A stretch of DNA of 810 nt. Origin: Escherichia coli (GTDB lineage Bacteria > Pseudomonadota > Gammaproteobacteria > Enterobacterales > Enterobacteriaceae). Position numbers and translations under genes: made by a program. Under the pieces are notes generated by a model, which had not been told where the DNA came from, made no database searches, and saw nothing but the letters and a program-made list of their open reading frames with translations. Shown piece after piece: positions 1 through 810 of the stretch (its first letter is position 1; every line of letters starts with the position of its first letter). The stretch lies in the NCBI RefSeq assembly GCF_003334785.1, contig NZ_QOWV01000072.1; one strand, 5' to 3'.

Positions 1-26
1 TGTAGATTCAATCTGTCAATGCAACA
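1..26. repeat. Terminal inverted repeat of IS30 (the end proximal to the transposase 3' end, conventionally IRR), about 26 bp
   Basis: Sequence tgtagattcaatctgtcaatgcaaca at the extreme window start. This matches my recollection of the IS30 inverted repeat (begins TGTAGATTCAAT, 26 bp, imperfect match to the other end). The partner repeat is outside the window, so the inverted-repeat relationship cannot be confirmed from this sequence alone. The transposase stop codon (8-10) lies inside this repeat. Confidence 0.7.
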
Positions 27-810
27 CCCCTTTCAATTATCTCTTTCGGTGTTTTGAACTTCAGTGTCTTTCTCGGTCTGTTGTTTAGCTGAGCAGCAAC
101 CAGATCTAGTTCATGTTGAGTATATTGGGCAAGACATGTCTTTTTAGGAAAGTACTGCCGAATTAGCCCATTTGTGTTCTCATTTGTTCCCCGCTGCCAA
201 GGACTCTGAGGATCGCAGAAGTAAACTTTAACGCCGGTGCTGACAGTAAATTCTAGATGTCTGGCCAGTTCCATTCCTCTGTCCCATGTCAGTGATTTTC
301 TGAGTTCTGACGGTAAACTCAGGAATTTGTCGGTAAGAGCCTGATTTACTGAGACAGAATCTTTGCCCCTGAGTCTAAGGATGATCGTATAACGTGATTT
401 TCGGTCTACAAGTGTGGCTATATGAGAGTTTTTTGTACCTGAGACTAAATCGCCCTCCCAATGCCCCAGAGAGCGTCTGTTATCGATATTTCGGGAACGT
501 TCGTGAATTGGTGTTCCGTTCACTATGTTAATCGTACCTCTTTCGCCTTTGCGGGTATGACGCCTGCCATGGCGAAGGCTATGCGACCGTCGCAGATGCT
601 GTATATTCAGGTGGTGTAGCGCTTCACGGCTACGAAAGTACAGCGTTTTATAAATTGTCTCAGGTGATATTCGCAGCGTTTTTTGACGTGGTTTTGTTCG
701 CCTTAACCATCCTGATATTTGCTCTGGAGACCATTTCATCTCCAGCTTTTCCAGAACAAGCTTTCGCAATGGTAAATTTTGATCCAGTAAGCACGGTTTT
801 GGCCTTTTCG
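8..810 (-). CDS. insI: IS30-family DDE transposase, 5'-partial (N-terminus beyond window end). Stop codon TGA at plus 8-10 is included. About 266 C-terminal codons are present.
   Basis: Six-frame track ORF 8..769 (253 aa plus stop). I translated the minus strand from 810 and the frame stays open for 13 more codons upstream of the track's first codon (K R P K P C L L D Q N L P, then L-R-K-L-V-L-E-K...). The track's 'M' is therefore an internal TTG (Leu) at 767-769, not the real start. Family motifs verified on the sequence: HWEGD (D at plus 449-451, gat on minus), WDRG (D at 281-283, gac on minus), NENTNG (E at 179-181, gag on minus), with exactly 33 residues between the second D and the E. 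The protein C-terminus ...KEIIERGVALTD-stop was confirmed by manual reverse-complement translation of bases 1-60. Gene symbol insI is the E. coli K-12 name for IS30 transposase, assigned from memory. Confidence 0.93.
   Translation of the reverse strand, partial: KRPKPCLLDQNLPLRKLVLEKLEMKWSPEQISGWLRRTKPRQKTLRISPETIYKTLYFRSREALHHLNIQHLRRSHSLRHGRRHTRKGERGTINIVNGTPIHERSRNIDNRRSLGHWEGDLVSGTKNSHIATLVDRKSRYTIILRLRGKDSVSVNQALTDKFLSLPSELRKSLTWDRGMELARHLEFTVSTGVKVYFCDPQSPWQRGTNENTNGLIRQYFPKKTCLAQYTQHELDLVAAQLNNRPRKTLKFKTPKEIIERGVALTD
179..451 (-). other. DDE catalytic core of the transposase (RNase H-like fold), spanning the three predicted catalytic residues
   Basis: Catalytic-candidate codons located directly on the sequence: D in LGHWEGD (plus 449-451), D in LTWDRG (plus 281-283), E in RGTNENTNG (plus 179-181). 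Spacing D-55-D-33-E in the translated protein, with the D(33)E spacing characteristic of the IS30 family. No frameshifts or stops interrupt the domain. Confidence 0.8.

What the first reader, a model, noticed from the sequence alone, without database searches (positions are those of the whole stretch)
1..810. Possible antisense regulation on the plus strand (known for IS30, not locatable here)
From established knowledge, IS30 expression is tightly regulated. I recall reports of internal transcription signals and an antisense transcript opposite the transposase gene, but I cannot reconstruct their coordinates from memory. The plus strand here is antisense to the transposase. I scanned it for sigma70-like -35/-10 pairs and found only isolated -10-like hexamers (tatatt 121-126, tatatt 602-607, tataaa 649-654) without a convincing -35 at 16-18 bp spacing. 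I therefore make no promoter call; this is flagged only as a place where regulatory structure is expected but not demonstrable by eye.
Basis: established knowledge. Interest (0 to 1): 0.25.

Follow-up and report, generated by a model that had tools for sequence, protein, structure and literature searches.

The report
Known IS30 antisense promoter region

Summary
The 810 bases are 100% identical to IS30 of E. coli. They are the reverse complement of IS30 nt 1221-412, so IS30 position = 1222 minus window position. [quoted passage not shown]

They are no more than chance gives (4 such hexamers on the + strand; 3.7 +/- 1.8 in shuffles). None has a usable -35.

Antisense control of IS30 is published (Arini, Keller and Arber 1997: promoter P30C, RNA-C). 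I could reach it only through secondary sources. One review places the promoter at IS30 bases 730-760, which is window 462-492 on the + strand. That is inside the window and away from all three hexamers.

The best hexamer pair there is ATGCCC(461-466)-N18-GATATT(485-490). It is weak and cannot be told from background by sequence alone.

The + strand RNA just downstream (about 497-650) is the most over-structured stretch of the element (z about -3). It ends in a hairpin followed by a U-rich run. This fits a discrete RNA of about 150 nt but does not prove one.

In three relatives 75-93% identical over the window, the -10 T and the extra structure are absent.

Verdict: already known, low interest.

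The parts
1..26 (.). Right terminal inverted repeat (IRR) of IS30. On the - strand it contains an outward-facing TTGACA at 19->14.
   Evidence: Window 1-26 is TGTAGATTCAATCTGTCAATGCAACA. The opposite end of the 1221-bp element in L001 is TGTAGATTCAATTGGTCAACGCAACA. TTGACA located.
8..810 (-). 3' two-thirds of the IS30 transposase gene (ORF-A / insI), from about codon 118 to codon 383 plus the stop at 8-10.
   Evidence: ORF. NF033563 transpos_IS30, 252 bits, E 6e-75. Annotated CDS at L001 1508-2659, which is IS30 nt 63-1214.
462..492 (+). Interval that should hold the published antisense promoter P30C (IS30 nt 760-730).
   Evidence: [quoted passage not shown] Coordinates converted with IS30 = 1222 - window. 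Secondary source only.
461..466 (+). Candidate -35 hexamer ATGCCC (3/6 matches to TTGACA). The assignment is inferred.
   Evidence: Best -35 for the GATATT hexamer, at an 18-nt spacer.
485..490 (+). Candidate -10 hexamer GATATT (4/6 matches, with A2 and T6 present). The assignment is inferred.
   Evidence: The -10-like hexamer I assign within 462-492. The pair has PWM score 4.38 and ranks 19th on the + strand, and shuffles give 24 sites at least as good, so it is not above chance. T490 is found only in IS30; the three relatives have G.
497..650 (+). Predicted body of antisense RNA-C if transcription starts about 7 nt after the -10. It is complementary to transposase codons of about 191-221. 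Predicted hairpins lie at 503-523, 540-578 and 594-648, followed by UUUUAUAAAUU (646-656).
   Evidence: Fold z-scores are -2.9 to -3.3 on the + strand and -1.2 to -1.7 on the sense strand. This is the lowest + strand (antisense) z-score of 22 sliding windows across the whole element. Both ends are inferred, not mapped.
121..126 (+). A chance-level match with no -35.
602..607 (+). A chance-level match; the best -35 is 3/6 at a 15-nt spacer. It lies inside the predicted third hairpin.
649..654 (+). A chance-level match with no -35. It is part of the U/A-rich run after the third hairpin.

Best explanation
The window is the right-hand two-thirds of the E. coli insertion sequence IS30, read on the strand opposite the transposase gene.

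On this + strand, in the middle of the gene, lies the weak promoter P30C at window 462-492. The most likely hexamers are ATGCCC-N18-GATATT. It drives the antisense RNA-C, which starts near window 497 and runs rightwards, towards the 5' end of the transposase gene.

RNA-C is complementary to the interior of the transposase mRNA, from about codon 221 downwards. It does not cover the ribosome-binding site. It lowers production of transposase and so lowers transposition, reportedly only on the copy that makes it (in cis).

Shown here: identity with IS30, strand geometry, and the coordinate mapping.

Taken from the literature: that the promoter and RNA exist, the approximate position, and the inhibitory and cis-only effect.

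Inferred here: the hexamer assignment, the start near 497, three hairpins, and a possible 3' end near 650 (an RNA of about 150 nt).
For: Identity and geometry: 100% identity over all 810 bases in the listed E. coli records, and at least 99% in the best match of 4,163 of 4,276 matching records. The whole 1221-bp IS30 lies at L001 1501-2721, with the transposase CDS at IS30 nt 63-1214 on the opposite strand.

Existence and effect of RNA-C: PMC9330008 lists IS30 among elements with an antisense promoter and gives bases 730-760. PMC8450116 says the IS30 antisense sRNA inhibits transposase mRNA translation. PMC11601373 says RNA-C is antisense to the gene but not at the start codon, and appears to act only in cis.

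Sequence support: GATATT at 485-490 is the -10-like hexamer I assign in the mapped interval, with a 3/6 -35 at an 18-nt spacer. This fits a weak promoter.

Structure: the + strand RNA immediately downstream is the most over-structured segment of the element and is strand-asymmetric. z is -3.19 for 501-650 against -1.64 on the sense strand. Hairpin 540-578 has z -3.2 and hairpin 594-648 has z -2.5, followed by a U-rich run.
Against: Sequence alone does not single out this site. The tool scan finds no promoter at its threshold. The candidate ranks 19th of the + strand PWM hits, and shuffled sequence gives 24 equally good sites.

The coordinates come from one review, not from the primary papers, which were not held.

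I could not reach any genome-wide antisense start-site data for IS30.

The -10 T490, two stem pairs of hairpin 2 and the excess fold stability are absent from relatives 75-93% identical over the window. Third-codon-position divergence shows no dip across 461-660. There is therefore no comparative support.

The fold z of about -3 is the best of about 44 windows tested, so it is only marginally significant after correction. There is no Rfam family.
Confidence: 0.75

Rival explanations
1. The published antisense promoter is real, but its hexamers are not ATGCCC/GATATT. It would use a neighbouring site such as TCGTGA-N17-TATGTT (501-529). Alternatively, if the review numbered the element from the other end, it would lie at window 730-760, near TTTCCA-N19-TAAATT (748-778, with TG upstream of the -10).
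For: Both alternatives score higher in my PWM scan than the preferred pair: 6.24 and 7.83 against 4.38. The review gives only an approximate interval and states no orientation.
Against: Neither alternative falls inside 462-492 under the standard numbering, in which the transposase ATG is at nt 63. With the reversed numbering the hexamers at 748-778 still fall largely outside 730-760. The over-structured RNA segment starts right after 492, not after 529 or 778.
Confidence: 0.15
2. The control works by transcriptional interference rather than RNA pairing. RNA polymerase firing from P30C collides with, or dislodges, polymerase transcribing the transposase gene on the same DNA copy. The RNA product itself would be incidental.
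For: RNA-C is reported to act only in cis and lies far from the start codon (PMC11601373). That pattern is what convergent-promoter interference predicts. No comparative conservation of RNA structure was found.
Against: The title of the primary paper and later reviews describe regulation of translational expression. A very weak promoter is a poor source of collisions. The + strand RNA shows strand-specific excess structure.
Confidence: 0.15
3. Nothing functional is encoded on the + strand of this window. Any antisense transcript is weak pervasive transcription with no selected role.
For: Promoter-like matches are at or below chance on both strands. The candidate -10 is not conserved, and synonymous divergence shows no dip. 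There is no Rfam hit.
Against: Secondary sources report that the antisense RNA reduces transposase expression. Only three relatives were compared, so the comparative test has little power.
Confidence: 0.08

Closest known systems
IS30 P30C / RNA-C (Arini, Keller and Arber 1997, Biol Chem 378:1421; promoters mapped by Dalrymple and Arber 1985, EMBO J 4:2687)
   Same: It is the same element at 100% identity, on the same strand, and the mapped interval lies inside the window. This is the thing itself.
   Different: Nothing known differs. My hexamer assignment, start site, hairpins and 3' end are predictions that I could not check against the primary papers.
IS10/Tn10 RNA-OUT (pOUT)
   Same: A cis-encoded antisense RNA made from inside the element that lowers transposase translation. 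A stable stem-loop RNA is predicted here too.
   Different: RNA-OUT starts within about 100 bp of the element end, covers the ribosome-binding site and start codon, and acts in trans across copies. The IS30 promoter sits mid-gene, about 660 nt from the start codon. Its RNA does not cover the RBS if it ends near 650, and it is reported to act only in cis.
IS200 art200 antisense sRNA
   Same: An antisense RNA opposite a transposase gene that reduces translation.
   Different: art200 overlaps the 5' UTR and start region of tnpA. The IS30 RNA is internal to the coding sequence.

Membership tests
IS30 (the E. coli insertion sequence itself) | 1221-bp element bounded by 26-bp terminal inverted repeats | tested here: met
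   Window 1-26 is the IRR. The full copy at L001 1501-2721 is 1221 bp, with the matching IRL at the other end.
IS30 (the E. coli insertion sequence itself) | Single 383-aa DDE transposase of the IS30 family, and near-identity to reference IS30 | tested here: met
   NF033563, 252 bits against a cut-off of 80. 100% DNA identity to copies annotated 'IS30-like element IS30 family transposase', including IS30A, IS30C and IS30D of MG1655.
Cis-encoded antisense RNA control of a transposase (IS10 RNA-OUT type) | Promoter inside the element on the strand opposite the transposase gene | tested here: inconclusive
   The literature places it at IS30 730-760, which is window 462-492. The sequence shows only a weak 7/12 match that is not above chance.
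Cis-encoded antisense RNA control of a transposase (IS10 RNA-OUT type) | Antisense RNA overlaps the ribosome-binding site or start codon of the transposase mRNA | tested here: not met
   The start codon is at IS30 nt 63, outside the window. The promoter interval is about 660 nt downstream of it in the mRNA. [quoted passage not shown]
Cis-encoded antisense RNA control of a transposase (IS10 RNA-OUT type) | Stable stem-loop structure in the antisense RNA | tested here: inconclusive
   Predicted z is -2.9 to -3.3 on the + strand for 497-650. It is marginal after multiple testing and is not conserved in relatives.
Cis-encoded antisense RNA control of a transposase (IS10 RNA-OUT type) | Inhibition in trans across copies (multicopy inhibition) | not testable with these tools
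   Only a secondary statement is available, that RNA-C appears to act in cis only.
Any curated RNA family (Rfam 15) | Covariance-model match | tested here: not met
   0 matches at E <= 1 on either strand of the whole element.

The most novel reading that the evidence does not exclude
RNA-C may be a discrete, structured antisense RNA of about 150 nt (window about 497-650) with a terminator-like 3' hairpin, and it may be a recent invention of IS30 proper. The -10 T (window G490T, which also causes H224N in the transposase) and two synonymous changes that each add a G-C pair to hairpin 2 (545, 572) are all derived relative to IS30H, a Rahnella copy and an Aeromonas copy. Antisense control would then have arisen within the last ~7-10% of sequence divergence.
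Probability: 0.2. Interest if true: 0.3.

Novelty: already known. Interest (0 to 1): 0.08.

Why it matters
It matters little beyond correct annotation. IS30 is a textbook insertion sequence, and its antisense RNA was described in 1997. The practical value is that the remembered feature can now be placed in window coordinates (462-492, + strand). The three hexamers flagged by eye can be dismissed as chance. The case also shows that a weak, experimentally defined promoter can be invisible to consensus scanning. The possible lineage-specific origin of the promoter and RNA structure is a small evolutionary side-note that would need transcript mapping to be worth anything.

Tried and rejected
(1) Primary papers. 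Dalrymple and Arber 1985 (PMC554561), Dalrymple et al. 1984 (PMC557656), Arini et al. 1997 (PMID 9461341), Mahillon and Chandler 1998 (PMC98933) and Thomason et al. 2015 (PMC4288677) are not held. The cap on the number of papers was then reached.

(2) Genome-wide start-site data for an antisense 5' end.
- The stored part of the Cappable-seq GTF (PMC4782308) holds only + strand sites up to about 1.1 Mb. It therefore misses the antisense strand of IS30A, and IS30C and IS30D altogether.
- The SMRT-Cappable-seq and Kim 2012 tables have nothing at the expected coordinates, but they list sense or upstream starts and are truncated.
- Dornenburg 2010 and Conway 2014 have no supplements held.
- This is absence of data, not evidence of absence.

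(3) Literature search for 'P30C' returned only unrelated matches.

(4) Consensus promoter and terminator scans on the window and on the whole element found 0 sites.

(5) Rfam gave no hit.

(6) Comparative support from three relatives gave no conserved -10, no conserved structure and no dip in synonymous divergence.

(7) Small + strand ORFs (394-531, 461-619). I did not test these for coding potential. The ATG at 461 lies upstream of the predicted start of RNA-C, so I did not pursue them.

Full report
**What the window is.** The 810 bases match IS30 copies in E. coli at 100% identity over their full length. 4,276 records hold a match, and the best match is at least 99% identical in 4,163 of them. 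In locus L001 the complete element spans 1501-2721, which is 1221 bp. TGTAGATTCAAT... repeats lie at both ends, and the annotated transposase CDS is on the opposite strand at 1508-2659. In the standard numbering (transposase ATG at nt 63, stop ending at 1214) the window is the reverse complement of IS30 nt 1221-412, so IS30 position = 1222 minus window position. Window 1-26 is the right inverted repeat. The - strand carries transposase codons of about 118-383, scoring 252 bits against NCBIfam NF033563.

**The observation.** TATATT at 121-126, TATATT at 602-607 and TATAAA at 649-654 are all present. None has a -35 better than 3/6 at spacers of 15-19 nt. Dinucleotide shuffles give 3.7 +/- 1.8, so this is chance level. 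The tool's consensus scan finds no promoter-like or terminator-like site on either strand of the window or of the whole element. In my PWM scan the best + strand score (8.75) is below the mean maximum of shuffles (10.3 +/- 1.4). IS30 is, if anything, poor in promoter-like sequence.

**What the literature says.** The primary papers are not in the held library. [quoted passage not shown]
- PMC9330008 lists IS30 among elements with an antisense-RNA promoter. [quoted passage not shown]
- PMC8450116 says the IS30 antisense sRNA inhibits translation of the transposase mRNA.
- PMC11601373 names it RNA-C. It says RNA-C is antisense to the gene but not at the start codon, and appears to act only in cis.

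Bases 730-760 convert to window 462-492. Even if the review had numbered from the other end, the interval would be window 730-760, still inside the window.

**What the sequence shows at that place.** Within 462-492 the -10-like hexamer I assign is GATATT (485-490; 4/6 matches, with the key A2 and T6). The best -35 is ATGCCC (461-466; 3/6) at an 18-nt spacer. This 7/12 match fits a weak promoter, but it ranks 19th on the strand, and shuffled sequence yields 24 equally good sites. The assignment rests on the literature interval, not on the sequence. A start about 7 nt after the -10 would be near window 497 (IS30 nt of about 725).

**Downstream RNA.** Sliding 150-nt windows over the whole element on both strands show that the antisense RNA from 451-650 is the most over-structured antisense-strand stretch. 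z is -2.3 and -3.2, against -0.6 and -1.6 for the sense strand of the same windows. For 497-650, z is -2.9 on the + strand and -1.2 on the sense strand. Three hairpins are predicted.
- 503-523.
- 540-578: -21.5 kcal/mol, z -3.2.
- 594-648: -22.1 kcal/mol, z -2.5, followed by UUUUAUAAAUU.

The strand asymmetry comes from G-U pairs. If the last hairpin and its U-run terminate transcription, RNA-C would be about 150 nt long and complementary to codons of about 191-221. This is prediction only. With about 44 windows tested, z of about -3 is marginal. The tool's terminator pattern does not accept this interrupted stem.

**Comparison with relatives.** Three collinear 1221-bp relatives were aligned: a Rahnella plasmid copy (93%), IS30H from Citrobacter (90%) and an Aeromonas copy (75%).
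- All three read GATATG or GATGTG where IS30 has GATATT. T490 is specific to IS30 and is non-synonymous in the transposase (H224 in the relatives, N224 in IS30).
- Two IS30-specific synonymous changes (545 and 572) each create a G-C pair in hairpin 2.
- The relatives show no excess fold stability in the homologous segment (z -0.8 to +0.8).
- Third-codon-position divergence shows no dip over 461-660.

There is thus no comparative evidence that an antisense RNA is conserved in the IS30 group. If the hexamer assignment is right, P30C is a derived trait of IS30 proper. Three sequences give little power either way. Rfam has no matching family.

**Transcript data.** I looked for a mapped antisense 5' end in public E. 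coli K-12 start-site tables. MG1655 has IS30A (270541-271761, +), IS30C (1469296-1470516, +) and IS30D (4507459-4508679, -). The stored part of the Cappable-seq table holds only + strand sites for the first 1.1 Mb or so. It therefore covers only the sense strand of IS30A. The other tables were truncated, restricted to gene-upstream starts, or not held. No conclusion about antisense starts can be drawn.

**Mechanism.** The most likely picture is the published one. A weak mid-gene promoter on the antisense strand makes RNA-C, which pairs with the interior of the transposase mRNA made from the same copy and lowers transposase yield. Because the reported effect is cis-only and the target is far from the ribosome-binding site, transcriptional interference between convergent polymerases is a live alternative for the same promoter. 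I cannot separate the two here.

**Verdict.** The feature can be placed at window 462-492 (+), not at any of the flagged hexamers. This is an already-known feature of a textbook element, and its interest is low.

Noticed in passing
window 390, 376, 241, 112, 94, 13 (- strand; IS30 nt 832, 846, 981, 1110, 1128, 1209): Cappable-seq (PMC4782308, suppl. file 1) lists sense-strand transcription starts inside the transposase gene of IS30A, in addition to the main start at IS30 nt 48, which has the highest score (32.8). Three of them sit 6-8 nt downstream of the best - strand PWM hits: TTGTAG-N16-TACGAT, AGGAAT-N17-TAGAAT and CTAAAA-N17-TATACT. They may correspond to internal sense promoters and could give 3'-end transcripts that read out through the IRR. 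The coordinate offset between U00096.2 and U00096.3 (776 bp) was confirmed from the Kim 2012 table.
   Followed up: partly
window 19->14 (- strand), inside the IRR: A perfect TTGACA points outwards from the right end. This is presumably the known -35 that forms the strong junction promoter (Pjunc) when IRR abuts IRL in IS30 circles or dimers (Pjunc is mentioned in PMC9333248). I located it in the sequence and did nothing further.
   Followed up: partly
window 490, 545, 572, 604 compared with L003, L004 and L005: Several IS30-specific substitutions relative to all three relatives cluster in the putative RNA-C region. G490T creates the T6 of GATATT and changes H224 to N. A545G and A572G are synonymous, and each adds a G-C pair to hairpin 540-578.
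   Followed up: partly
L005 (Aeromonas salmonicida plasmid NZ_CP110651.1), 601-1821: The Aeromonas IS30-like copy (75% identical over the window, 1221 bp, intact inverted repeats) has two internal stop codons in the transposase frame and is not annotated as a gene. It is probably a decayed copy.
   Followed up: no
L001 1238-1495 and 2656-3628; L002 4207-6191; L008 3126-5802: IS30 often sits inside other insertion sequences. It interrupts an IS3-family transposase in strain 300709, and it interrupts IS911 in both the CP4-6 and KpLE2 regions of MG1655. This fits IS30's known preference for particular target sequences.
   Followed up: no
window 461-619 and 394-531 (+ strand): Two small antisense ORFs (52 aa from ATG, 45 aa from GTG) overlap the promoter interval. 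The ATG at 461 coincides with the candidate -35, so an RNA starting near 497 would not include it. Coding potential was not tested.
   Followed up: no
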